In this document: positions 10,440 through 43,204 of the stretch, piece after piece
Position numbering within the stretch: the first letter of the stretch is position 1
Layout: every line of letters starts with the position of its first letter
DNA from: Minisyncoccia bacterium
GTDB lineage: Bacteria; Patescibacteriota; Minisyncoccia; Phycocordibacterales; Zambryskibacteraceae
NCBI GenBank assembly: GCA_038212375.1
Contig: JBBQUO010000002.1
Span: 1 to 45,783 of the forward strand
Direction of reading: 5' to 3'
DNA length: 45,783 bases
Made by a program: the position numbers and the translations under genes
The notes under the pieces: model-generated
What the model saw: the letters and a program-made list of their open reading frames with translations, nothing else
Told to the model about the DNA's origin: nothing
The model's database searches: none

Positions 10440-10462
10440 CTTCTGGGTGCTATAATAGATAC

Positions 10463-11227
10463 ATGTCAAAATATATTGTCATCGGGAACTGGAAATTAAA
10501 TCCCGTTTCACCCATTGAAGCAAAAAAATTGTACGCAGGAGTCTTGAAGGTTGCGCAGAAGATGCGCCAGACTGACGTTGTGGTGGTACCTTCTTTTATT
10601 CATATTCCACTGCTTGCTATGAAAAGTAAAAAGCTTTCTCTCGGTGCACAAAATGCATTTGATCAAGACAGTGGCGCATATACGGGCGAAGTCAGTGCGC
10701 TCCAAATCAAAAACGCTGGAGTTACCCATGTCATTGTTGGTCATTCAGAACGTAGGGCGATGGGCGAGACGAGTAATATGGTAAATAATAAAGTTGTTGC
10801 AGTGTTGAAAGCCCGCATGACGCCTATTATCTGTATTGGAGAAGAAGTGCACGACAATCATGGCAACTATCTCGCATTTCTTGAAAACGAAATAAAAATA
10901 GCACTTCGTGGAGTTACCTCAAAAGATCTTTCAAACGTCATTATTGCCTATGAACCTATCTGGGCGATAGGGAAAAATGCAAAAGAAGCGATGAACCCAA
11001 ACACACTTCACGAGACCGTTCTCTATATCCAAAAAGTCCTCGCAGATATATATGGACGCGCTATGGTCAAAAAAGTCCGTATTCTCTACGGTGGATCTGT
11101 TAATCCTGATAATATCGGAGATCTCGTTCAGTTTGGTGCCGTGCAAGGATTTCTTGTGGGCGGTGCGAGCCTATCTGCTGACACGTTTGGAAAACTACTA
11201 ACCATTATTGATACGTATCGTTCATAG
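10463..11227 (+). CDS. tpiA: Triosephosphate isomerase
   Basis: IGNWKLN, VGHSERR, YEPIWAIG and YGGSV motifs. ATG 10463 preferred over the longer track ORF start at 10421. Confidence 0.9.
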   Translation: MSKYIVIGNWKLNPVSPIEAKKLYAGVLKVAQKMRQTDVVVVPSFIHIPLLAMKSKKLSLGAQNAFDQDSGAYTGEVSALQIKNAGVTHVIVGHSERRAMGETSNMVNNKVVAVLKARMTPIICIGEEVHDNHGNYLAFLENEIKIALRGVTSKDLSNVIIAYEPIWAIGKNAKEAMNPNTLHETVLYIQKVLADIYGRAMVKKVRILYGGSVNPDNIGDLVQFGAVQGFLVGGASLSADTFGKLLTIIDTYRS

Positions 11228-14783: not shown

Positions 14784-15538
14784 TGAAAGCTGAAAATACT
14801 ATTTTTACTGACGGGTCGTCTCGAGGGAACCCAGGTCCTGGTGGCTGGGGTGCGATTATCGTTTTTTCTGATGAAAAAACGATAATGAATAATGAATATC
14901 GAATGACGAATAATTCAGTCCAGGAAATCGGAGGGATGGTATCTCACACTACTAATAATAGAATGGAATTAACTGCAGTTATTGAAGCGCTAACCTTTGC
15001 ATCAAAAATTGCCATTCCTCATTCGTTATTCATTATTCATTTGGATTCCAGCTATGTCATGAACGGTGCAACAAAGTGGATCTACGGTTGGCAGAAGAAC
15101 AACTGGAAGACCAGTACAAAGGCAGATGTACTCAATGTAGATTTGTGGCAGAAGCTTGCCCGAGTGCTCCCACTCCTTACGATCGAATGGAAACTCGTAA
15201 AGGGTCACTCGGGAGTACCAGCAAACGAACGTTGCGACGCTATAGCAACAAGTTTTGCAGATGGCGACAAACCTCACCTGTACAGCGGAAATCTTGATTC
15301 CTATGAAATTGATTTACACATTCCAGTATCAAAAGCTCAGGGTTCTAAACTAAAACCTAAAAGCTCTCGAGCTCCTGCATATTCATATGTAAGTCAGGTA
15401 GATGGCGTTATACAAACTCATGGTACATGGGCAGAGTGTGAGCAGAGAGTAAAAGGAGTAAAGAAAACCAAATTTAAAAAATCTATCTCTTCAGCAGACG
15501 AGAAATTTATTATTGATTCATGGAAGACTTCTCACTAA
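14783..15538 (+). CDS. rnhA: RNase HI with an internal insertion and a C-terminal hybrid-binding (Cauli_VI-like) domain
   Basis: TDGSSRGNPGPGGWG, TTNNRMEL, DSSYV and KGHSGVPANERCD match RNase HI. C-terminal YSYVSQVDGVIQTHGTWAECEQRVKGVKKTKFKK matches the RNase H1 HBD pattern. TAATG overlap with recJ. Confidence 0.85.
   Translation: MKAENTIFTDGSSRGNPGPGGWGAIIVFSDEKTIMNNEYRMTNNSVQEIGGMVSHTTNNRMELTAVIEALTFASKIAIPHSLFIIHLDSSYVMNGATKWIYGWQKNNWKTSTKADVLNVDLWQKLARVLPLLTIEWKLVKGHSGVPANERCDAIATSFADGDKPHLYSGNLDSYEIDLHIPVSKAQGSKLKPKSSRAPAYSYVSQVDGVIQTHGTWAECEQRVKGVKKTKFKKSISSADEKFIIDSWKTSH
14884..15041. repeat. 28-nt inverted repeat (26/28 complementary) with a 102-nt spacer inside rnhA; each arm is four in-phase heptads
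   Basis: Left arm aatGAATaatGAATatcGAATgacGAAT (14884-14911). Right arm ATTCctcATTCgttATTCattATTCatt (15014-15041). Mismatches at 14899/15026 and 14907/15018. Confidence 0.9.
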
Positions 15539-17870: not shown

Positions 17871-17928
17871 GCTTCCTCCTGTAAGGGGTCTTGTTCGAGT
17901 ATAGAACACCTTGGCATATAATAAAAGG

Positions 17929-18759
17929 ATGAAATCTTTCCATGATCGCTGGAGATTCTATATTGTCAGTTTTCTTATCGTCTCTGCAACTATTATTTGG
18001 ATAGCAGCACTTCAGCATAAGCCTCGTGTAGTGGTGACCGTGTCATTCCTCGATGTGGGAGAAGGAGATGCGACTCTTATCGAAGGAATGCATGGCGAGC
18101 AGGTTCTGATTGATGGTGGTCCTGGAAGAAATACTCTTACTGCTCTTGCAAAAGCTCTTCCTTTTTTCGATCGCTCACTCGATATGGTTGTTGAAATGTT
18201 TCCAGACAAAGATAATAGTGGAGGATTACCCTATGTGCTTGATCAGTATAGTGTAGAAACTTTTATTTCTCCCAATAGACCACCACAGAATACTACTATT
18301 GATGAAGTAGATCGTATCAACATCGAGAAGCACACACGTGTTATTGAAGGAAAAGAAGGGAAGAGGTTTAATTTTCTCGATGGTTCGTATCTCAGTATTA
18401 TCTCAGCTCAGCCAGGCCAGTCTCTTATTCTCCAGTACAATTATGGTGGTACGTGCATTTTATTTATGGGAGATACTCAAAACAGAGAAGAGAGAAATTT
18501 TATTGTGCAGCACAGCAATTTCCATTGCCAAATTCTTAAAGTGGGTCATCATGGTTCAAAGAGTGCAACAAGTGATGAGCTACTCGCGCTAGTGCATCCA
18601 GAGTATGCAATATTTTCAAACTCAAAAGATAATAGGTATGAATACCCAGACAGGGAAGTCATAGACAGGCTTTCAACGTGGAAAATAGTAAGATTGGATA
18701 CTCTCGAAAAGGGAACAATCACGATTGAATTAGATGGAAAATTGGTGCAATACAAATAA
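17929..18759 (+). CDS. Metallo-beta-lactamase fold protein of the ComEC C-terminal type, with an N-terminal TM anchor
   Basis: VSFLDVGEGDATLIEG..VLIDGGP and KVGHHGSKSATS resemble the ComEC Lactamase_B domain. ATG 17929 preferred over TTG 17911. Confidence 0.75.
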   Translation: MKSFHDRWRFYIVSFLIVSATIIWIAALQHKPRVVVTVSFLDVGEGDATLIEGMHGEQVLIDGGPGRNTLTALAKALPFFDRSLDMVVEMFPDKDNSGGLPYVLDQYSVETFISPNRPPQNTTIDEVDRINIEKHTRVIEGKEGKRFNFLDGSYLSIISAQPGQSLILQYNYGGTCILFMGDTQNREERNFIVQHSNFHCQILKVGHHGSKSATSDELLALVHPEYAIFSNSKDNRYEYPDREVIDRLSTWKIVRLDTLEKGTITIELDGKLVQYK

Positions 18760-21198: not shown

Positions 21199-21320
21199 TA
21201 CGCTCTGTCTTTTTCTCACATTTCTTCGTTGCACGCTCGTTTTCTCTCGCGCTGTACGAGTGTACAGCTTGATCGAAAGCCTCGCGTGCGTCTCGAACTG
21301 CAAGAAAAATCCTATCGCTA

Positions 21321-21364
21321 AAATACCCCTCCCAGTACACTAGTACAGCTCGGGGTATTTTTTT
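21321..21364 (+). terminator. Terminator-like hairpin downstream of rpsG
   Basis: AAATACCCC - 22-nt loop - GGGGTATTT followed by tttttg. The long loop lowers confidence. Confidence 0.5.
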
Positions 21365-21405
21365 GTTCCGTCTCGAGCTTGCTTAATTTCTAGGGTTTTT
21401 GAATC
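21347..21405 (+). repeat. Copy A of a ~58-nt intergenic repeat
   Basis: agctcggggtatttttttgttccgtctcgagcttgcttaatttctagggtttttgaatc. Shares the blocks GGGnTnTTTT, CGTCTCGAnCT and TTGAAT with copies B and C. Confidence 0.7.
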
Positions 21406-21444
21406 ATGTCTAAAAGAAAAGTGATATTTTTTACGTTGTAATTT

Positions 21445-21882
21445 TTGAGTTGCGAGGTAATATTTATATACTCCTGTTACTTAAAGCAATTTAATACAAT
21501 TAATCATAATCAGGATCAAACAAACAAAGCTCCTCTATTGTTACGACTCGTTACAGCAGCTGCAATACCTCTTTCTGTGGTTCTAATCGCATGGGTTAGC
21601 CTTGCATTGGAGTGGAATAGTTATAGAGGTTACGGGTATGCTCCATTTAGTTTTACAGAGCAAATTCTTCGCTTGGGATTATTTGCTATGCCCTTTTTAT
21701 TAATAGTAACCCTTTTGGGTTTAAGGAAAATGAAAAGATGGGCACTCTATATTTTAACTGGTATTTCCGTGCTCGTTGCTATCCCGTTTCTGCTCTCTTT
21801 CAATATTATCTTTATGACATTGGTTGTGATACAGATATTTTTCCTGAACTATGTTTGGTCACTGAGAGGAAGAATGAGCTAA
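21445..21882 (+). CDS. Hypothetical membrane protein (about 3-4 TM); start uncertain
   Basis: The ORF has no early in-frame ATG (track start is TTG). The hydrophobic segments look genuine. Confidence 0.45.
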   Translation: MSCEVIFIYSCYLKQFNTINHNQDQTNKAPLLLRLVTAAAIPLSVVLIAWVSLALEWNSYRGYGYAPFSFTEQILRLGLFAMPFLLIVTLLGLRKMKRWALYILTGISVLVAIPFLLSFNIIFMTLVVIQIFFLNYVWSLRGRMS

Positions 21883-21924
21883 TATAAAGGTTTATGTGTA
21901 AAACCCTCTTACTTGAAAATGGCC

Positions 21925-21984
21925 AGCTCGGGCTCTTTTCTTTTGCGTCTCGACCTAGGCTAGCTTTGAAAGTCTTTGAAATTG
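21925..21984 (+). repeat. Copy B of the ~58-nt intergenic repeat
   Basis: agctcgggctcttttcttttgcgtctcgacctaggctagctttgaaagtctttgaaattg. Confidence 0.7.
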
Positions 21985-22088
21985 CAAATCCCCTGAGCTT
22001 GAATTTCAATGTAATAAGCAAAAAAATTTCGCACATATTGCGATTTTTTTGTTGTATAATTTAAATCTTAATAGTAAGACGTAATACC

Positions 22089-22529
22089 ATGAAAGCTTTA
22101 CAGAATTATGCTGCCATCTTTTTCATTATTGCAGTTTCAGTATTGTCCTTAGTGTCTATTTTTGGAATTTGGGATATTTTTAGTGGAGACGTTGTATGGA
22201 AGTCTTTTGAAACGTTAGGCTTACTTGCGATTGTGGCATCAGTCATAATTAAAGCGGGAGCTGTTATGAAAAATGGAGATAGTGACAGTTTGCCAAATCC
22301 ACTTTTTGTTAGCATTCGAAAAATATCTTTAACTACCCTTATTGTTTCTGCTTCTTTGCTGGCTCTTTTAGGAGTTTTATCTATTTGGGATGTTATCACA
22401 GACAAGGATGCACTCTATAAATCATTAGGAACCCTCGCGGTAATTGCCTTCGGAGCCGCGATAGTTAAGGTTGTTTGCGATGAAATGGATGATTCTAGCA
22501 AAAAGATACCTGTAAAAGTTAAAGGTTAA
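22089..22529 (+). CDS. Hypothetical 4-TM membrane protein with an internal two-fold duplication
   Basis: ..LSLVSIFGIWDIFSGDVVWKSFETLGLLAIVASVIIK.. aligns with ..LALLGVLSIWDVITDKDALYKSLGTLAVIAFGAAIVK.. Confidence 0.65.
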   Translation: MKALQNYAAIFFIIAVSVLSLVSIFGIWDIFSGDVVWKSFETLGLLAIVASVIIKAGAVMKNGDSDSLPNPLFVSIRKISLTTLIVSASLLALLGVLSIWDVITDKDALYKSLGTLAVIAFGAAIVKVVCDEMDDSSKKIPVKVKG

Positions 22530-22555
22530 CAGTCTTGTCATTTTTGTATAAAAAA

Positions 22556-22613
22556 GTGCTTTGGGCTCTTTTTTACGATTCGACCTTGTCTAACTTCTGG
22601 GATTGTTGAATTC
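22556..22613 (+). repeat. Copy C of the ~58-nt intergenic repeat
   Basis: gtgctttgggctcttttttacgattcgaccttgtctaacttctgggattgttgaattc. Confidence 0.7.
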
Positions 22614-22622
22614 AAGTAAACA

Positions 22623-22647
22623 AAAAACTGCTCGACGGACAGTTTTT
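22623..22647. terminator. Weak A/T-flanked hairpin between convergent genes
   Basis: AAAAACTG ctcgacgga CAGTTTTT. Confidence 0.4.
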
Positions 22648-22723
22648 GTAGTTTCGTCCTTTTGGACTCATCAGTAAGAATTACATTCTTAAACTACAGG
22701 GGAGATTACTCTCCCCAAAGAGG

Positions 22724-23083
22724 TTAATGAAAACAACGGAATACATAGAAGGTTTTATACACGACGCCTTCATTCTCGTCGTCAAAGTAGTAGTCGCCAA
22801 CAGCTTCGGCGACAGAAACTTCGCATTCATCCCATCCGATCCGGAACCCAAGGGCAAATGATCGTGATGGGCTACGCTCTGCTTCACACGAGTCCATAGC
22901 GTACTCGCCATCTGCGTCGCAACCTCCGTAACTACCGAGGTTGTAGCCTTCCCACCATTTCGAGAGCTTGTGCCCTAGTACTGGACCAATCGGTCCAGTA
23001 AACGGACAACCATGATGGTGTCCACCATCAGGCTGTTCGTTCCTGCAGTAGTAGCATAGAAGCCTCCGGCGCGTCGCGACCAT
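22724..23083 (-). CDS. Hypothetical Cys/His-rich small protein (119 aa), possible zinc-binding N-terminus
   Basis: GAGAGGTGG lies 3 nt upstream of the ATG. N-terminus CYYCRNEQPDGGHHHGC. Looks more GC-rich than its neighbours by eye. Has its own promoter and a hairpin (GGGGAG attact CTCCCC, 22699-22716) after the stop. Confidence 0.6.
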   Translation of the reverse strand: MVATRRRLLCYYCRNEQPDGGHHHGCPFTGPIGPVLGHKLSKWWEGYNLGSYGGCDADGEYAMDSCEAERSPSRSFALGFRIGWDECEVSVAEAVGDYYFDDENEGVVYKTFYVFRCFH

Positions 23084-23087
23084 AATC

Positions 23088-23114
23088 CACCTCTCTGTAT
23101 GTACAGAGAAGGTG
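23088..23114 (-). promoter_or_regulatory. SD-sequestering hairpin in the 5' UTR of the Cys/His-rich gene
   Basis: Minus-strand RNA reads CACC t TCTCTGTA ca TACAGAGA GGTG: 12 bp with one bulge. The 3' arm contains the Shine-Dalgarno GAGAGGTGG. Confidence 0.55.
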
Positions 23115-23128
23115 AACTAGATCTAGTT
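23115..23128. promoter_or_regulatory. Perfect 14-bp palindrome AACTAGATCTAGTT (CTAG x3 at 6-nt spacing, counting 23129)
   Basis: Self-complementary on inspection. Lies between the predicted minus-strand promoter and the SD hairpin. Confidence 0.5.
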
Positions 23129-23174
23129 CTAGTTACTTTCAACCACCTCTGTAAGTGAAAAGAACAACTTCAGT

Positions 23175-23203
23175 ATTAAATCATTAATGTTTAAATCTGT
23201 CAA
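23175..23203 (-). promoter_or_regulatory. Sigma70-like promoter for the Cys/His-rich gene
   Basis: Minus strand reads TTGACA - 17 nt - TTTAAT. Predicts a 5' UTR of about 85 nt. Confidence 0.55.
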
Positions 23204-23310
23204 ATAAGCTGTAGGGTAGTATTTCTATTGCTTCTCATGGGGTTTTGGGATATTCTTGAGGGCAATTGGCAGGAGACTGCTCATTTTTGTTCAACTTTTA
23301 TTTATCAAAG

Positions 23311-23345
23311 CTAACCGCTAAAACCTAACCCCTATAAGCTAAATT
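23311..23345 (+). repeat. Five exactly 7-nt-phased CTA(A/T) heptads immediately upstream of fusA
   Basis: ctaaccg ctaaaac ctaaccc ctataag ctaaatt with CTA at 23311, 23318, 23325, 23332, 23339. ATG at 23348. Confidence 0.85.
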
Positions 23346-23347
23346 TT

Positions 23348-25501
23348 ATGGAACGAGATTATCCACTGGAAAGAGTAAGGAATTTTGGAATTGTAGCTCA
23401 CGTTGATGCAGGGAAGACCACGACATCAGAGCGTGTTCTCTATTACACTGGTGCTCAGCACAGTATTGGAGAAGTGCACGATGGAGAGACCACCACTGAC
23501 TGGATGGAACAAGAAAAAGAGCGCGGCATCACGATTACCGCGGCGGCTATTACCTGTTTCTGGTCTCCGACATATCTCGAAGCAGAATCTCGAAAGGATA
23601 AAGCAAACAAATATCGTTTCAATATCATCGACACCCCAGGTCACATCGACTTTACGGTAGAAGTGAAGCGCTCGCTTCGCGTGCTCGATGGAGCTGTCGT
23701 CGTGTTCGACGGAGTAGCAGGAGTAGAACCTCAGTCAGAAACCAACTGGCGCTACGCGGAAGAGGCAAGTGTTCCACGTATTTGCTTTATCAATAAGCTC
23801 GATCGAACAGGTGCATCATTTGAGCGTTCATATAAATCTATTCTTGATCGTCTTTCAAAAAAGGCAGTCCGTGTACAGATTCCAATCGGGGAAGAGGGAA
23901 ATCACGAAGGAGTTATTGACCTTCTCCAGATGAAGGCGTATTACTTTGAAGGAAACATGGGAGACAAGATTATTCTCAAAGAAATCCCTGACGCATTTAA
24001 GGCAGATGCAGAAAAGTATCATGCAGAGCTCGTAGAGAAAATTGTAGAGCACGATGATGCTATGATGAACGATTTCCTTGAAGGAAAAATCCCAGCATAT
24101 GCTGACCTCAAGAAAATTCTCCGAAAGGCGGTTATTGCAAATGAAATTTTCCCTGTGTATGCAGGATCCGCACTTAAGAACAAAGGAGTACAGATCATTC
24201 TCGACGGAGTGGTGGACTATCTCCCGTCTCCACTTGATATCAAAGATGTGGTTGGAGTAGATCCTCGTACAGGAGACGAGATTACTCGTGCACCATCTGA
24301 TAGCGCACCATTTTCAGCGCTTGCATTCAAACTGCAAGCAGATCCATTCGTAGGACAGCTCACATTCTTCCGCGTATATTCAGGAACTATTGAATCAGGA
24401 AGTTATATTTACAACTCAACCACTGGCGAGAGAGAGCGTCTCGGACGCATCGTGCGCCTTCAGGCAAACGATCGTGAAGAAGTGAAGAAAGTATTTGCGG
24501 GAGAAATTGCAGCAGCGGTAGGACTCAAAAATGCAAAGACTTCTCATACCTTCTGCGACGAAAATAACCCTATCGTACTTGATCAAATCAAATTCCCTGA
24601 ACCGGTTATTTCACTTCGTATTGAGCCGAAGACAAAAGCAGACCAGGAAAAGATGGGTATGGCACTCAAGCGTCTCTCAGATGAAGATCCAACATTTAGA
24701 ATTAAATCCGACTCTGACACTGGTGAAACGGTGATTATGGGAATGGGAGAACTTCACCTTGAAATTCTCGTCGATCGTATGAAGCGTGAATTCGGCGTAG
24801 AAGCAAATGTCGGCAAACCTCAAGTATCGTACAAAGAAACGATCACTGGTGAGGCAGAGGTGGAAAACAAATACATCAAACAGACGGGAGGAAAGGGTCA
24901 GTATGGACACGTCCGTATCAGTATCAAACCGCTCCCACACTATGATCCAGAAGAAAAAGTTCCAAAGAATGCTCACCGAGAACCTGGATACGAATTTATC
25001 GATTCAATCAAAGGAGGGGTTATTCCACAAGAATTTATTCCAGCTGTTGAAAAGGGAGTTCGTGAATCTATGGATCGCGGAGTAGTGGCAGGATTCAAGA
25101 TGACTGATATTTCATGTGAACTTACATTCGGAAGTTACCACGATGTGGACTCTTCAGAAATCGCTTACAAGATCGCAGCATCACAGGCATTCCAAGAAGC
25201 AGCAAAGAAGGCAAGACCTGTTATTCTCGAACCTATTATGAAGATCGAGGTAGTAGTTCCAGACAAGTTCATGGGAGACATTACGGGAAATATCTCAGGA
25301 AAGCGTGGACAGATCGATGGTATGGATGAACGTGGAGATCTGAAAGTTATTCGTGCACAAGTACCTCTCTCAGAAATGTTCGGATATGTGACCGCACTTC
25401 GCTCAATGACCGAGGGGAGAGGGTCATCAACGATGGAATTCGATCACTATGCGATCGTACCTCCAAACGTAGCTCAGGCTATTGTAGAAAGTAGAAAGTA
25501 A
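23348..25501 (+). CDS. fusA: Elongation factor G
   Basis: AHVDAGKTT, DTPGHIDF, NKLD and a full-length EF-G domain order. Confidence 0.95.
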   Translation: MERDYPLERVRNFGIVAHVDAGKTTTSERVLYYTGAQHSIGEVHDGETTTDWMEQEKERGITITAAAITCFWSPTYLEAESRKDKANKYRFNIIDTPGHIDFTVEVKRSLRVLDGAVVVFDGVAGVEPQSETNWRYAEEASVPRICFINKLDRTGASFERSYKSILDRLSKKAVRVQIPIGEEGNHEGVIDLLQMKAYYFEGNMGDKIILKEIPDAFKADAEKYHAELVEKIVEHDDAMMNDFLEGKIPAYADLKKILRKAVIANEIFPVYAGSALKNKGVQIILDGVVDYLPSPLDIKDVVGVDPRTGDEITRAPSDSAPFSALAFKLQADPFVGQLTFFRVYSGTIESGSYIYNSTTGERERLGRIVRLQANDREEVKKVFAGEIAAAVGLKNAKTSHTFCDENNPIVLDQIKFPEPVISLRIEPKTKADQEKMGMALKRLSDEDPTFRIKSDSDTGETVIMGMGELHLEILVDRMKREFGVEANVGKPQVSYKETITGEAEVENKYIKQTGGKGQYGHVRISIKPLPHYDPEEKVPKNAHREPGYEFIDSIKGGVIPQEFIPAVEKGVRESMDRGVVAGFKMTDISCELTFGSYHDVDSSEIAYKIAASQAFQEAAKKARPVILEPIMKIEVVVPDKFMGDITGNISGKRGQIDGMDERGDLKVIRAQVPLSEMFGYVTALRSMTEGRGSSTMEFDHYAIVPPNVAQAIVESRK

Positions 25502-25528
25502 TCAGTAAATAGTTTTTAGTAAAGATAC

Positions 25529-25554
25529 AAAAAACCCTCAATTGAGGGTTTTTT
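25529..25554 (+). terminator. Rho-independent terminator after fusA
   Basis: AAAAAACCCTC aatt GAGGGTTTTTT. Confidence 0.8.
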
Positions 25555-25675
25555 GCTATTTGTAAAATCTCACAGTGGATCAATTAAAGGAAATTGAAAC
25601 TCTCGTGAAATGACTAAAAAGTAAAAGTGCCACAAAAAATTTCCCAAACGGTTAAAAATATTGTTAGAGCATTAA

Positions 25676-25709
25676 AAATCTCTCGAATGCTTTGCCTTCG
25701 AGAGATTTT
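25676..25709. terminator. Orphan 12-bp terminator-like hairpin in the fusA-tuf spacer
   Basis: AAATCTCTCGAA tgctttgcc TTCGAGAGATTT with A/T runs on both sides. No convincing ORF on either side. Confidence 0.5.
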
Positions 25710-25791
25710 AGTTTACAGCGGCGGATTTCTGTGCGGAGGTCTCACCTCGGGAGACCAACCCCTTAATTGTTGCGAGTTATCTTTTTTCTTC

Positions 25792-25819
25792 TTGACTATT
25801 AGCTGCCCTTTGCTATGAT
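25792..25819 (+). promoter_or_regulatory. Sigma70-like promoter with extended -10, upstream of tuf
   Basis: TTGACT - 16 nt - (TGc)TATGAT. Predicts a ~115-nt structured leader before ATG 25940. Confidence 0.6.
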
Positions 25820-25939
25820 GTTTTTTACTTGTTTGGCAGCTGTTTTTATATGTAACAAGTTTATTATCAAATTCGTGATTCTCGCATGTGAAGCTCTCGC
25901 GCCACACGCGAATATCGGGAATATTAATCAATCATTACA

Positions 25940-27145: not shown

Positions 27146-27193
27146 GAATACCGAATAGTGAATAGGGAATAAAGCTCAATTCACATTCATTCA
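27146..27193 (+). repeat. Heptad array GAATA x4 followed by ATTC x3, in the tuf-rpsJ spacer
   Basis: gaatacc gaatagt gaatagg gaataaa starting at 27146, 27153, 27160, 27167. ATTC at 27179, 27185, 27189. rpsJ ATG at 27199. Confidence 0.85.
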
Positions 27194-27198
27194 CGATA

Positions 27199-27573
27199 AT
27201 GGCAACCGCAAAAACAACAAAAGAAAAGAAGTCACCGAAAGCGAAAGCTGCGAACAAGGACGCAGGGGTTTCAAAGCTCCGCATCCGTGTGCGCGCATAC
27301 GAATATAAAATTCTTGATATTTCAGTGAAGCAGATTATCGATACCGCAGTACGATATGATGCGGAAGTTCTTGGACCTATTCCACTTCCAACTGAAATCA
27401 AAAAATATACCGTAAACCGCGCTTCATTCGTATACAAAAATGCGCGAGAGCAGTTTGAAATGCGAATTCACAAGCGTCTCATCGATATCGTAAACCCTAC
27501 TCCGAAGCTTATTGAGTCACTCTCAAGTCTCTCACTTCCTTCTGGAGTAAATATCGACGTTAAGATGATGTAG
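27199..27573 (+). CDS. rpsJ: 30S ribosomal protein S10, with a Lys-rich N-terminal extension
   Basis: [14 protein letters not shown]...[27 protein letters not shown]. Confidence 0.95.
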
Positions 27574-38452: not shown

Positions 38453-38480
38453 TAGTTCGTAGGGGATTAGCTTTTAGCTT
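38453..38480 (+). repeat. TAG array (spacing 7, 8, 7 nt), including the tandem TTAGCTT TTAGCTT, just downstream of the secY stop
   Basis: TAG at 38453, 38460, 38468, 38475. TTAGCTT at 38467 and 38474. Confidence 0.75.
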
Positions 38481-38481
38481 C

Positions 38482-38511
38482 AAAAAACATCACAGGCATG
38501 TGATGTTTTTT
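38482..38511 (+). terminator. Rho-independent terminator between secY and adk
   Basis: AAAAAACATCACA ggca TGTGATGTTTTTT. Confidence 0.8.
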
Positions 38512-38523
38512 GAAATGTTTTTA

Positions 38524-38572
38524 CTAGCAATTTAACTCTAAACGCTATAAGCTATCACCTATACGCTAATCT
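38524..38572 (+). repeat. CTA heptad array (six CTA in one 7-nt phase) upstream of adk
   Basis: CTA at 38524, 38538, 38545, 38552, 38559, 38566: ctagcaa tttaact ctaaacg ctataag ctatcac ctatacg ctaatct. ATG at 38579. Confidence 0.85.
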
Positions 38573-38578
38573 CAATTT

Positions 38579-39172
38579 ATGAAACCTCATGCTTTTATTT
38601 TTATAGGTCGATCAGGATGTGGAAAAGGTACCCAGGTACAACTTCTCCGCCCCGTCATCGAAAAAGAGAGCATTCCTGTTCTCTATATTGAAACGGGAGA
38701 TATGTTTCGCAACTTCATCAAAGGAGAAGGCTATAGCGCTACACTTTCTCATAATGTATACGAGACCGATACTCGTCAGCCAGACTTTCTTGCGTGCTAT
38801 ATGTGGTCAACCTTTCTCGTCAATGATTTTAAGGGAGATTCTCATGTATTTTTTGATGGCACACCGCGCTCAATCACTGAAGCAAGACTCCTCGATACTG
38901 CCCTGAGATTTTATCAGTTTGAAAAGATTCATGTAATATACCTTAACGTTAGTCGTGCTTGGTCGGAAAAGCATCTACTTTCAAGGGGTCGTTCTGACGA
39001 TGCAAATCTTTCGAAAATTGATACAAGACTTAACTGGTTTGATACCGACGTTGTCCCGGCAATTGACTATTTCAAACAATCTGACAAACATTTTATCGAA
39101 GTCGATGGTGAGCAAAGTGTTGAAGCAGTGCACTCAGATATTGTAAAAGCACTTTCGATTGTTTCTGCATAA
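38579..39172 (+). CDS. adk: Adenylate kinase-like nucleoside monophosphate kinase (divergent)
   Basis: P-loop GRSGCGKGTQ, DGTPRS and the position after secY. Divergent from canonical Adk. Confidence 0.7.
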   Translation: MKPHAFIFIGRSGCGKGTQVQLLRPVIEKESIPVLYIETGDMFRNFIKGEGYSATLSHNVYETDTRQPDFLACYMWSTFLVNDFKGDSHVFFDGTPRSITEARLLDTALRFYQFEKIHVIYLNVSRAWSEKHLLSRGRSDDANLSKIDTRLNWFDTDVVPAIDYFKQSDKHFIEVDGEQSVEAVHSDIVKALSIVSA

Positions 39173-42698: not shown

Positions 42699-42793
42699 TA
42701 TGGTTTAACCTTGATAGTACGTCTATTGAGGAATGTAGCGGGGATTGATAGTTTTCAATCAAAATAGTATATACGTATCTGAAGATAACAAGA

Positions 42794-42799
42794 TATAAT
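42794..42799 (+). promoter_or_regulatory. TATAAT box 6 nt upstream of the ATG of the next gene (possible leaderless mRNA)
   Basis: agaTATAATcagtatATG, with no SD. Confidence 0.3.
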
Positions 42800-42805
42800 C
42801 AGTAT

Positions 42806-43204
42806 ATGAATTTTCGTAATACGCTTCTTCCAACGTGTATATTGGCTCTCTTTGTATATTATCTCCATATTACAGCGCTGAGAGAGCATCTCTATTTCCA
42901 TCATTGGTGGTTTCACATGATCATTCACGTTCTTACTGGTGCGGTGCTCGCTCTGGCTACCTTGTACATCTATGCTGGCATCTCTTCTCGAAAGGGGGAA
43001 AGTTTTACAAAACTTGCTGCAGTTGCATTACCGTTTGTACTTCTGTGTGCGGTAGGGTGGGAAATATTCGAACTTATGACGGGACTTATTTATATTACTG
43101 GCACTGACTATACTATCGATACAACAAAGGGAATTTTTACGGGACTTGCTGGAGGATTATTTGGTATTTCGTATGCACATTTTATTCATAAAAGAACGAG
43201 TTAA
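42806..43204 (+). CDS. Hypothetical 4-TM membrane protein with a His-rich first loop
   Basis: Hydrophobic helices plus HLYFHHWWFHMIIH and GWEIFEL. Family not recognised. Confidence 0.6.
   Translation: MNFRNTLLPTCILALFVYYLHITALREHLYFHHWWFHMIIHVLTGAVLALATLYIYAGISSRKGESFTKLAAVALPFVLLCAVGWEIFELMTGLIYITGTDYTIDTTKGIFTGLAGGLFGISYAHFIHKRTS

What the first reader, a model, noticed from the sequence alone, without database searches (positions are those of the whole stretch)
23311..23347. Five exactly phased CTA heptads directly upstream of the fusA start codon
CTA occurs at 23311, 23318, 23325, 23332 and 23339 (ctaaccg ctaaaac ctaaccc ctataag ctaaatt). The last one starts 9 nt before ATG 23348. No Shine-Dalgarno sequence is present. 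The same design occurs before adk and shares the string CTATAAGCTA. Ring-shaped RNA-binding regulators read trinucleotides at fixed spacing: HutP reads UAG every 7 nt, and TRAP reads GAG/UAG every 5-6 nt. On the sense strand the repeated triplet here is CUA, and UAG would be on the antisense strand. Any binding factor would therefore be of unknown type. Alternatively the array could be an unstructured standby or enhancer site for SD-independent initiation.
Basis: partly seen in the sequence, partly recalled or inferred. Interest (0 to 1): 0.62.

Follow-up and report, generated by a model that had tools for sequence, protein, structure and literature searches.

The report
Seven-base CTA repeats at gene borders
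The five evenly spaced CTA triplets before the fusA gene are real, but they are one copy of a repeat class that lines gene starts and ends across these ultrasmall (Patescibacteria) bacteria, and they look like a structure-free lead-in to the start codon, not a fusA-specific switch.

Summary
CTA sits at 23311, 23318, 23325, 23332 and 23339, and the fusA ATG at 23348. No shuffle of the window reproduces the pattern.

It is not a fusA-specific leader. The genome (a 657-kb Paceibacteria MAG) holds about 30 arrays with the consensus (G/C)CTA(A/T)(A/C)A, usually 4-5 units long and almost all intergenic. They follow one rule: reading outward from a coding region gives TAGNNNN. So CTA arrays abut start codons and TAG arrays abut or overlap stop codons, often as inverted pairs around a terminator.

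- The rule also holds in three other families.
- Five-copy arrays occur in 89 of 301 sampled Patescibacteria genomes.
- Arrays recur before fusA, adk and trxB in some relatives and are decayed or absent in others.
- A second heptad family (ATTC/GAAT) obeys the same rule.

The closest known class is the intergenic heptamer repeats of Xanthomonas, Nostoc and Beggiatoaceae. These show the same polarity and a preferred unit number, and their function is unknown.

Context: this order's 16S rRNA lacks the anti-SD, MutS is absent, and most transcription units start leaderless. Array-bearing genes are leadered exceptions.

I found no HutP, TRAP or Hfq. Cold-shock proteins do not track the arrays. The arrays are not promoters and cannot pair with the 16S tail.

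Best reading: a repeat born by replication slippage that supplies a G-poor, unstructured lead-in to the AUG.

The parts
23311..23341 (+). CTA heptad array: 5 phased CTAs, i.e. 4 heptads plus a terminal CTA. TRF calls it as a 14-nt super-period over 23307-23342.
23342..23347 (+). A/T-only spacer AATTTT between the last CTA and the fusA ATG. The typical spacer in this class is 3-7 nt.
23348..25501 (+). fusA (EF-G), 717 aa
23246..23256 (+). Best candidate promoter for fusA: extended -10 TGGGATATTCT. It scores 6.3 bits on the genome's own promoter model. The block TAT(T/C)CT...GCAATTGGCAGG is conserved in G024 and G019. The predicted transcript start near 23263 is an inference.
23268..23289 (+). 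Hairpin GGCAGGAGACTGCT plus T-run, conserved in G024 and G019. It is either a weak terminator of upstream transcription or a 5' hairpin of the fusA leader.
25485..25519 (+). Period-7 stop-triplet run across the fusA stop codon: TAG 25485, TAG 25492, TAA 25499 (the stop), TAA 25506, then TAG 25510 and TAG 25517. This is the stop-side counterpart of the array.
25529..25554 (.). Bidirectional intrinsic terminator (A-run, CCCTC-AATT-GAGGG, T-run) ending the single-gene fusA unit
38453..38485 (+). TAG-oriented heptad arm after the secY stop codon (spacings 7, 8, 7), followed by a terminator hairpin
38538..38568 (+). Second 5-copy CTA array, ending 10 nt before the adk ATG at 38579
27146..27192 (+). 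Second heptad family with the same layout in the tuf-rpsJ spacer: GAATAGT GAATAGG GAATAAA after the tuf stop, and ATTC repeats before the rpsJ ATG

Best explanation
The fusA-proximal CTA heptads are one gene-proximal arm of a Patescibacteria-wide class of short, degenerate heptamer arrays (about 4-5 units, consensus (G/C)CTA(A/T)(A/C)A).

Origin. The arrays arise by 7-nt replication slippage in a lineage that has no MutS.

Placement. They persist only at the edges of coding regions and in one polarity. The C-containing, G-poor strand is the sense strand just before start codons. Its complement (TAGNNNN) is the sense strand just after stop codons.

Role at fusA. The array forms the last ~35 nt of a leadered mRNA. 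This stretch is G-poor, has no start codons and cannot fold. In an organism whose 16S rRNA has lost the anti-SD, it most likely acts as a permissive landing (standby) region for S1-type, pairing-independent initiation.

It is not a gene-specific regulatory site, a promoter or an alternative Shine-Dalgarno sequence.

Shown: the existence, statistics, placement rule, phylogenetic spread and turnover of the arrays; absence of the anti-SD; the leaderless norm; lack of structure.
Inferred: the slippage origin, that the array is transcribed as 5'UTR, and that it helps initiation.
For: Reality and class:
- Period-7 specificity and intergenic restriction.
- A census finds 31 arrays. Of 22 intergenic ones, 20 hug the coding-region boundary on their 3' side; 11 abut starts and 10 abut stops.
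- The same rule holds in G049, G041 and G039 and for the independent ATTC/GAAT heptads (7 of 7 intergenic arrays).
- The pattern occurs in 33 of 61 genomes of the order and 89 of 301 of the phylum.

Slippage origin:
- A 14-nt super-period lies inside the fusA array.
- 7 of 16 TRF rows in the window have period 7 or 14, including inside coding sequence.
- Perfect long arrays occur in G004 and G039.
- MutS is absent in all 61 genomes.

Turnover and persistence:
- The orthologous fusA array in G024 sits at the same junction.
- adk arrays of 5 copies occur in G003, G004, G013 and G051, although adk is only 40-60% identical.
- In-phase decayed remnants are seen in G024 (adk) and G002 (fusA).

Translation context:
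- 16S tails across the order lack CCUCC.
- There is no pairing trough with either the canonical or the lineage tail.
- G drops to 13% at -10..-1.
- S1-like proteins are present in 61 of 61 genomes.
- About 100 genes are leaderless, with TGnTATAAT-N6/7-ATG.
- Array junctions score -13.6 to +1.2 bits against the promoter model, whose true sites have a median of 8.7. The best fusA promoter lies 91 nt upstream.
- The fusA initiation region folds at -5.6 kcal/mol against -7.7 for shuffles.
- All five start-side arrays lie on the weak-structure side of the genome median and contain no ATG, GTG or TTG.
Against: - There are no transcript data, so it is not shown that the array is in the mRNA.
- The accessibility advantage is modest: 17th-40th percentile, and most genes are unstructured anyway.
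- The standby idea explains only the start-side arrays. The mirror arrays after stop codons and the strict polarity there are not explained by it.
- The fixed copy number (18 of 23 arrays in G049/G041 have exactly 5 CTAs, none has 6 or more) and full conservation of CTA beside diverged filler (0/15 against 6/16 differences, Fisher p = 0.018) hint at tighter constraint than a generic filler needs. That comparison is biased, because arrays were found by their CTAs.
- Many relatives do without an array before fusA.
Confidence: 0.55

Rival explanations
1. The arrays are neutral slippage debris with no function. Heptamer arrays arise anywhere and survive only where, and in the orientation in which, they do least harm. 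The TAG orientation is impossible inside genes, and G-rich leaders are selected against. Under this view the fusA array contributes nothing to expression.
For: - Distribution is patchy even within genera.
- Remnants have decayed by point mutation.
- The array is absent from most orthologous fusA leaders.
- MMR is lost across the order.
- Period-7 repeats also occur inside coding sequence.
- The genes behind arrays share no functional theme.
- In-gene arrays are 7 of 8 sense-CTA, as expected from stop-codon avoidance.
Against: - The copy number is sharply peaked at 5, not geometric.
- Arrays persist at the same junction (secY-adk) across genomes whose adk is only 40-60% identical.
- CTA is conserved where filler has diverged.
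- The strict polarity after stop codons has no obvious 'harm' explanation.
- The same vocabulary recurs in distant families.
Confidence: 0.2
2. The arrays are binding sites for a dedicated lineage-specific factor that reads one heptad per subunit or domain. It could act on double-stranded DNA, like the omega ribbon-helix-helix repressor on 7-bp heptads in direct and inverted orientation (my recollection, not looked up). Or it could act on RNA, like HutP on UAG-N4 repeats for the stop-side arms. Such a factor would mark or insulate the borders of coding regions.
For: - There is an invariant trinucleotide at exact 7-nt phase with a defined flanking preference.
- The unit number is fixed at about 5.
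- Arrays occur in direct and inverted arrangement.
- The two arms at one locus do not co-vary (-22.0 against -21.4 kcal/mol for non-cognate pairs, p = 0.31). So unit identity, not pairing, is what is kept.
- The vocabulary is shared across the phylum.
Against: - No HutP, TRAP or Hfq is present.
- Cold-shock-domain proteins do not track arrays. The array-rich genomes G003, G019, G041 and G051 lack them.
- S1 is universal and so uninformative.
- A second heptad family (ATTC/GAAT) and the Xanthomonas and Nostoc heptamers obey the same placement rule with different sequences (PMC4692102). That would need several readers.
- Filler differs between lineages.
Confidence: 0.12
3. The function lies in RNA-RNA pairing. 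The CUA leader arm pairs with a UAG trailer arm. In cis this would form an intercistronic hairpin that a terminating ribosome opens (translational coupling), or an RNase III site. In trans, 3'-end fragments made of a UAG array plus terminator would act as anti-leader RNAs on fusA, adk, clpP, trmD and trxB.
For: - Any TAG arm can pair with any CTA arm at about -21 kcal/mol.
- In G003, G004 and G049 the arms are adjacent with no terminator between them and reach to within 3-5 nt of the AUG.
- UAG arrays sit directly upstream of terminator hairpins, the layout of 3'UTR-derived small RNAs.
- The 5' and 3' arrays of trxB are complementary at 15 of 17 positions.
Against: - There is no locus-specific covariation.
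- For fusA the long-range fold is not better than shuffles (z = -0.74), and its upstream partner is degenerate.
- In convergent and divergent gene pairs the two arms are never on one transcript.
- G051 has a CTA array with no TAG arm.
Confidence: 0.08
4. The array is the fusA promoter. Repeated TAAGCT-type -10-like boxes would drive a leaderless or near-leaderless transcript.
For: - The T of the last CTA lies a median of 6 nt from the ATG. This equals the -10-to-ATG distance of about 100 leaderless genes.
- TAAGCT keeps T-12, A-11 and T-7.
Against: - Junction windows score -13.6 to +1.2 bits, against a median of 8.7 for true promoters. They lack the TG extension and A-9.
- Vocabularies in other lineages, such as CTACTCA and CTAGAAG, are not -10-like.
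- Half of all arrays point into the 3' ends of genes.
Confidence: 0.03

Closest known systems
Intergenic heptameric repeats GGGAATC (Xanthomonas) and GGGGA(C/T)T (Nostoc; the cyanobacterial STRR type), Rehm et al. 2015, PMC4692102. These belong to the 'long simple sequence repeats' of Mrazek et al. 2007, as cited in PMC4679880.
   Same: - The unit is 7 nt and the repeats are strongly intergenic.
- The G-rich strand is sense within 50 bp of, or overlapping, the stop codon, and antisense within 50 bp upstream of ORFs. This is the polarity seen here.
- A unit number is preferred (4 there; here 5 CTAs, i.e. 4 full units plus CTA).
- Convergent (inverted) pairs are frequent.
- Associated genes are housekeeping genes with no theme.
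- Length and sequence vary between relatives at the same loci.
- The function is unresolved and a slippage origin has been proposed.
   Different: - There are no G-tracts here, so G-quadruplexes, the explanation offered there for the unit number, cannot form.
- The units are degenerate: an invariant CTA with variable filler, not near-identical copies.
- The host is Patescibacteria, with no anti-SD and mostly leaderless mRNAs.
TAACTGA direct repeats of marine Beggiatoaceae, some Cyanobacteria and Bacteroidetes (MacGregor 2015, PMC4679880)
   Same: - They are heptamer direct repeats of 2-6 copies, ending a few nucleotides before start codons.
- They overlap the expected ribosome-binding site in SD-poor spacers.
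- They occur before ribosomal-protein and other essential genes with no functional theme.
- A role in SD-independent initiation has been proposed but not tested.
   Different: - The unit differs and is exact there.
- They are almost all in forward orientation before starts (one indirect repeat), whereas here half are mirrored after stop codons.
- The candidate readers proposed there (S1, Csp, CsrA) were partly tested here. Csp does not track the arrays and S1 is universal.
HutP and TRAP binding sites (UAG-N4 x3 x2; (G/U)AG every 5-6 nt)
   Same: Both have a trinucleotide read at fixed spacing. The stop-side arms here do read UAG every 7 nt just upstream of terminators.
   Different: - At fusA the sense triplet is CUA.
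- No HutP or TRAP gene is present.
- There are dozens of sites per genome at both ends of unrelated genes.
- A second heptad family has the same layout.
REP/BIME-type intergenic palindromic elements of enterobacteria (from my own knowledge)
   Same: They are short intergenic inverted repeats, often just after stop codons and between convergent genes. They are dispersed over many operons and affect mRNA ends.
   Different: REPs are about 35-nt imperfect palindromes with a conserved sequence, mobilised by RAYT transposases. Here the arms are heptad arrays with no conserved interior, and no transposase link was looked for.

Membership tests
Gene-border heptameric repeat arrays (Rehm 2015 / Mrazek LSSR class) | Tandem units of 7 nt, far in excess of chance | tested here: met
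Gene-border heptameric repeat arrays (Rehm 2015 / Mrazek LSSR class) | Strong bias to non-coding DNA | tested here: met
   period 7 appears only in intergenic DNA; 23 of 31 arrays are intergenic, in a genome that is about 86% coding.
Gene-border heptameric repeat arrays (Rehm 2015 / Mrazek LSSR class) | Polarity: the G-containing strand is sense at or after the stop codon and antisense just upstream of ORFs | tested here: met
   (20 of 22 arrays). One search shows the same for the ATTC/GAAT family (7 of 7). Compared with PMC4692102.
Gene-border heptameric repeat arrays (Rehm 2015 / Mrazek LSSR class) | A preferred unit number and frequent convergent pairs | tested here: met
   18 of 23 arrays have exactly 5 CTAs and none has 6 or more, in G049/G041. 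Searches show the pairs.
Gene-border heptameric repeat arrays (Rehm 2015 / Mrazek LSSR class) | G-quadruplex-forming G-tracts (specific to the GGGNATC subclass) | tested here: not met
   The sequence itself: no GGG runs in CTA(A/T)(A/C)A(G/C) units.
TAACTGA-type start-codon-proximal repeats (MacGregor 2015) | Direct heptamer repeats ending a few nt before the start codon, in a spacer without SD | tested here: met
TAACTGA-type start-codon-proximal repeats (MacGregor 2015) | The unit is TAACTGA, with essentially only forward orientation before starts | tested here: not met
   (different unit; half of the arrays are mirrored after stops)
HutP-type antiterminator site | UAG triplets with 4-nt spacers on the sense RNA, in a leader upstream of or overlapping a terminator | tested here: not met
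   the sense triplet is CUA; the array lies downstream of the hairpin.
HutP-type antiterminator site | HutP protein encoded in the genome | tested here: not met
   (PF09021, no match at E <= 1; the genome is 92% complete)
TRAP binding site | 9-11 (G/U)AG triplets with 2-3 nt spacers, and a TRAP protein | tested here: not met
Shine-Dalgarno-type element (pairing with the 16S 3' tail) | Complementarity to the 16S rRNA 3' tail at -5 to -12 | tested here: not met
   tails of 30 relatives read GGA(G/A/T)TAATTCAA-type, with no CCUCC and no UAG; no pairing trough. The 16S of G000 itself is not in the assembly.
Sigma-70 extended -10 promoter of this genome | Match to TGnTATAAT placed 6-7 nt before the transcript start or ATG | tested here: not met
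   (junction scores -13.6 to +1.2 bits, against a median of 8.7 for true sites)
Omega/ribbon-helix-helix heptad operators | 7-bp units in direct and inverted orientation, bound by one dimer per unit | not tested
   The unit geometry fits. No search for an omega-like protein was made, and binding cannot be tested with these tools.

The most novel reading that the evidence does not exclude
The heptad arrays are directional border elements of coding regions in Patescibacteria. They would be read by a still unknown conserved factor, or would act through generic CUA-leader/UAG-trailer pairing. Together they would form a genome-wide post-transcriptional layer that stands in for SD-based control in a lineage that has lost the anti-SD. 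The same logic would then explain the unexplained heptamer repeats of Xanthomonas, Nostoc and Beggiatoaceae, which share the polarity and unit-number preference but not the sequence.
Probability: 0.12. Interest if true: 0.8.

Novelty: new variant of a known kind. Interest (0 to 1): 0.5.

Why it matters
Bacterial heptamer repeats that hug gene borders have been described in a few phyla and never explained. For the G-rich ones the favoured idea is G-quadruplex formation.

Here the same architecture appears in a sequence family that cannot form quadruplexes. It shares the 7-nt unit, the about 4-5 units, the G-containing strand pointing outward from the gene, and the inverted pairs. It also appears twice over in one genome (CTA/TAG and ATTC/GAAT).

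That points to a cause independent of the particular sequence. It also gives small, simple genomes in which to test the question.

The host lineage adds interest. Its 16S rRNA has no anti-SD, its transcription units mostly start leaderless, and it lacks MutS. So it raises the question of how the few leadered genes are translated, and these arrays sit exactly there.

For the finding as stated, the practical result is negative: it is not a fusA-specific riboregulator.

Tried and rejected
- **Ring-protein readers.** HutP, TRAP and Hfq families are absent.
- **Cold-shock domain as a 7-nt reader.** It is present in 26 of 61 genomes. It is not associated with arrays and is absent from array-rich G003, G019, G041 and G051.
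- **S1 as a discriminating factor.** It is universal, so it gives no information.
- **Alternative SD.** The 16S tails have no UAG, and there is no pairing trough.
- **Promoter.** The arrays score poorly on the genome's own model.
- **Locus-specific RNA stem.** Cognate arms pair no better than non-cognate arms, and the fusA long-range fold is not significant.
- **'Stop codons in all three frames' as a general design.**
  - Only fusA's array has sense stops in all three frames.
  - There is no genome-wide +7/+14/+21 phasing after stop codons.
  - CTACTCA-type arrays have no sense stops.
- **Rho-loading (rut) insulator**, an idea prompted by the C-rich, G-poor strand pointing inward. No Rho signature motifs occur in any ORF of at least 150 aa (motif scan only). 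Cyanobacteria, which show the same polarity, lack Rho (my knowledge).
- **MMR loss as the cause of the patchy distribution.** MutS is absent everywhere, so its loss is permissive but does not discriminate.
- **Transcript evidence.** No RNA runs exist for this MAG or for two array-bearing relatives.
- **Copy-number polymorphism from reads.** Only about 3x contig depth was available, which is uninformative.
- **Rfam and tRNA scans of the window.** Nothing was found.
Full report
**Observation**

The last one starts 9 nt before the ATG at 23348. The ORF 23348-25501 is EF-G (TIGR00484, 1036 bits). The adk leader carries the same 5-copy design at 38538-38568 and shares CTATAAGCTA.

The 31-nt pattern occurs twice in the window and in none of 100 dinucleotide-preserving shuffles. 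TRF calls the fusA array as a 14-nt unit repeated 2.6 times. That is a footprint of tandem duplication.

**The organism**

The window is contig C2 of a 657-kb, 92%-complete assembly. Its EF-G is closest to those of Patescibacteria MAGs labelled Zambryskibacteria, Nomurabacteria, Paceibacterota and Minisyncoccia.

**A genome-wide repeat class, not a fusA leader**

In the whole genome, phased CTA arrays are specific to period 7:
- There are 17 arrays with at least 3 copies and 8 with at least 4, against 0-5 and 0-2 at periods 4-12.
- CTA is the trinucleotide with the strongest period-7 excess in intergenic DNA (z about 9.4). It is followed by AGC, GCT and TAG, which belong to the same AGCTA core.
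- CTA-CTA distances peak at 7, 14 and 21 in intergenic DNA only. Coding DNA shows just the codon period.

The unit consensus is C-T-A-(A/T)-(A/C)-A-(G/C), drawn from a small vocabulary: CTAAAAG, CTAACAC, CTATAAG, CTAAAAC, CTATCAG.

A chain search with this matrix finds 31 arrays. In a 4-unit chain scan, reversed sequence gives no hits at 16 bits or more, against 57 in the real genome. The 31-array census used a looser 3-unit chain at 14 bits, where reversed sequence still gives 10 hit positions against 62. So a few of the 31 may be false.

**The placement rule**

Of 22 intergenic arrays with two neighbours, 20 lie close to the coding-region boundary on their 3' side. That distance is typically -7 to +13 nt, against about 100 nt on the 5' side.
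- Eleven abut a start codon on the same strand. These include fusA, adk, a ClpP-like gene, a TrmD-like gene and a TrxB-like gene.
- Ten abut or overlap the stop codon of a gene on the opposite strand. On that gene's sense strand they read TAGNNNN, and the gene's own TAG is often the first unit.

Several spacers carry both arms in the order stop - TAG arm - terminator hairpin - CTA arm - start. The secY-adk spacer is one example.

A [TAG arm ... CTA arm] inverted repeat looks the same from both strands. So 'CTA before starts, TAG after stops' collapses into one rule: reading outward from a coding region gives TAGNNNN.

Arrays inside genes are sense-CTA in 7 of 8 cases. This is trivial, because the other orientation would put stop codons in every frame.

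fusA itself is bracketed:
- Its 3' end reads TAGAAAG TAGAAAG TAAtcag TAAa TAGTTTT TAG. The TAA at 25499 is the stop codon.
- A strong bidirectional terminator follows at 25529-25554.

**Relatives**

The fusA-specific idea fails its own test in most genomes. None of the 80 species recovered with EF-G has the array in its fusA leader. Among 30 array-positive relatives, 24 lack it there.

The class itself is widespread:
- The 4-copy pattern is present in 33 of 61 genomes of the order, with a near-zero reversed-pattern control.
- The 5-copy pattern is present in 89 of 301 genomes sampled across the phylum, and the same vocabulary appears in distant families.

In G049, G041 and G039 the arrays again end -1 to +12 nt before a same-strand ATG, or abut an opposite-strand stop codon. 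From their N-termini, the genes behind the start-side arrays are dnaJ, serS, trxB, fusA, ftsE, nusA, rnc, murG, ftsX and ftsZ. These are housekeeping genes with no common theme.

Arrays recur at the same junctions:
- Before fusA they occur in G024, G028, G049 and G041, with a decayed one in G002. G024's array is at the same position, behind the same conserved hairpin.
- Before adk they occur as 5 copies in G003, G004, G013 and G051, although adk is only 40-60% identical.
- Before trxB they occur in G049 and G028.
- Elsewhere there are in-phase remnants decayed by point mutation, for example G024 adk with CTT-CTA-CTT-CCA.

The copy number is peaked. In G049 and G041, 18 of 23 arrays have exactly 5 CTAs, 5 have 4, and none has more. 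Only G039 shows long arrays of 11 and 16 units, like simple sequence repeats.

Between the orthologous fusA arrays of G000 and G024, all 15 CTA positions are identical while 6 of 16 filler positions differ (Fisher p = 0.018). This comparison is biased, because arrays were recognised by their CTAs.

**A second heptad family**

ATTC/GAAT heptads follow the same rule:
- All 7 intergenic ATTC arrays hug the boundary on their 3' side.
- ATTC is sense before starts. Twice it lies directly upstream of a leaderless promoter.
- GAAT is sense after stops, as in the tuf-rpsJ spacer.

Period 7 or 14 accounts for 7 of the 16 TRF rows in the window, including rows inside coding sequence. MutS is absent from all 61 genomes of the order. 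So heptamer slippage is a general property of this lineage.

**Translation and transcription context**

- No gene in the window has a GGAGG-like element upstream.
- G falls to 13% at -10..-1.
- The 16S 3' end is not in this assembly. In 30 relatives of the order, helix 45 is followed by GGA(G/A/T)TAATTCAA-type tails in place of GGATCACCTCCTT, so the CCUCC anti-SD is gone. This holds in array-positive and array-negative genomes alike.
- Upstream regions show no pairing trough with either the canonical anti-SD or the lineage's own tail.
- TATAAT-like hexamers end exactly 6 nt (64 genes) or 7 nt (33 genes) before the ATG, against a background of about 7.
- The promoter model built from these 97 sites is an extended -10, TGnTATAAT, with no -35 information.

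So the normal start of a transcription unit here is leaderless.

The array junction windows score -13.6 to +1.2 bits on that promoter model, against a median of 8.7 for true sites. They are therefore not promoters.

For fusA, the best promoter is TGGGATATTCT at 23246-23256 (6.3 bits, top 0.15% of genome positions). Its TAT(T/C)CT...GCAATTGGCAGG block is conserved in G024 and G019. This predicts a leader of about 85 nt made of:
- a 5' hairpin at 23268-23281 with a U-run;
- a short A/U stretch;
- the array;
- AAUUUU and then AUG.

In G019 the same hairpin is followed by ordinary A/U-rich sequence in place of the array.

Array-bearing genes are thus leadered exceptions. Their AUG-proximal 35 nt are G-poor and contain no ATG, GTG or TTG. 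They fold weakly: the fusA initiation region folds at -5.6 kcal/mol against -7.7 for shuffles. All five start-side cases fold at -3 to -5, against a genome median of -6.0. S1-like proteins with about four S1 domains are present in all 61 genomes.

**What it most likely is and does**

I read the array as a slippage-born border repeat. At this position it forms a non-folding, G-poor approach to the fusA AUG in an organism that cannot use SD pairing. That makes it a permissive standby region, not a regulatory site.

The data do not explain why the mirror arrays after stop codons keep strict polarity, or why the unit number is so constant. I therefore put only 0.55 on this reading.

**Rivals**

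- **Neutral debris (0.2).** This fits the patchiness and decay, but not the peaked copy number or the persistence at the same junctions.
- **A dedicated reader protein (0.12).** This fits the invariant triplet, the fixed number and the lack of arm covariation (cognate -22.0 against non-cognate -21.4 kcal/mol, p = 0.31). Against it, HutP, TRAP and Hfq are absent and cold-shock proteins do not track arrays. Two unrelated heptads in this genome, plus those of other phyla, also obey the same rule.
- **RNA pairing between CUA leaders and UAG trailers (0.08).** This is energetically possible for any pair of arms. It has no locus-specific support.
- **Promoter (0.03).** The genome's own model rejects it.

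Two further ideas were discarded:
- **General 'stops in three frames' design.** The data do not support it.
- **Rho-loading insulator.** No Rho motifs were found. The Nostoc repeats show the same polarity, and cyanobacteria lack Rho (my knowledge).

**Comparison with known systems**

The closest described class is the intergenic heptamer repeats GGGAATC of Xanthomonas and GGGGA(C/T)T of Nostoc (Rehm et al. 2015, PMC4692102). Those repeats share several features with the arrays here:
- They prefer four units.
- They often form convergent pairs.
- They sit next to housekeeping genes.
- They vary between close relatives.
- Their function is unknown.

The authors linked the unit number to G-quadruplexes. 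The arrays here obey the same rules without any G-tract.

The TAACTGA repeats of Beggiatoaceae (MacGregor 2015, PMC4679880) share the position just before start codons in SD-poor spacers, and the untested translation hypothesis.

My literature searches found no description of such repeats in Patescibacteria. They also found no report of anti-SD loss or leaderless dominance in this group. The library is limited, so this is not proof of absence.

An earlier agent of this scan reached a compatible view of the secY-adk spacer.

**Verdict**

The feature is real and highly non-random. It is a new sequence variant, in a new phylum, of a known but unexplained kind of gene-border heptamer repeat. It is not a fusA-specific riboregulator.

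Noticed in passing
L181-L210 (16S rRNA 3' ends of 30 relatives in the order); not present in this assembly: After helix 45 the 16S tail reads GGA(G/A/T)TAATTCAA-type in place of GGATCACCTCCTT. The CCUCC anti-Shine-Dalgarno is missing across the whole order. This matches the total lack of SD motifs and the absence of any pairing trough upstream of genes.
   Followed up: partly
genome-wide; in the window e.g. 10443-10465, 17909-17931, 42786-42808: About 100 genes have an extended -10 box (TGnTATAAT) ending exactly 6-7 nt before the ATG, with no -35 signal. Leaderless mRNAs therefore appear to be the normal way a transcription unit starts in this genome.
   Followed up: partly
61 genomes of the order (G000-G060): No MutS (TIGR01070) in any of the 61 genomes, while 11 of 14 control genomes have it. 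Mismatch repair seems lost across the order, which would favour repeat slippage.
   Followed up: no
window 27146-27192, 14882-15041; also C3:25787, C7:4163, C14:4227, C15:9241-9304, C36:754: A second heptad family (ATTC/GAAT) follows the same border and polarity rule as the CTA/TAG family. Twice it sits directly upstream of a leaderless promoter.
   Followed up: partly
window 25502-25939: The fusA-tuf spacer is 438 nt long, and no ORF of 80 aa or more, Rfam family or tRNA was found there. It holds a strong terminator (25529-25554) and a second hairpin with a T-run near 25676-25710. fusA is therefore a single-gene unit, cut off from tuf.
   Followed up: no
window 21199-23347: About 2.1 kb lies between rpsG and fusA, which are adjacent in many relatives. 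It holds three ORFs without NCBIfam matches (21445-21882 +, 22089-22529 +, 22724-23083 -).
   Followed up: no
G039 (L132, L147): A relative in another family has long, perfect arrays: CTACTCA x11 and a 14-mer CTACTTACTACTAT x8. These are true simple-sequence expansions of the same CTA-phased type.
   Followed up: no
window 27199-27573: The rpsJ ORF is 124 aa, but the S10 models match only residues 25-123. So the called start may be about 24 codons too early, or the protein has an N-terminal extension.
   Followed up: no
G000 C15:4127-5116: The S1-like gene match is reported with one in-frame TGA. This could be an assembly error, a frameshift or a recoding event. A TAG-oriented heptad array follows its 3' end at C15:5133-5153.
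   Followed up: no
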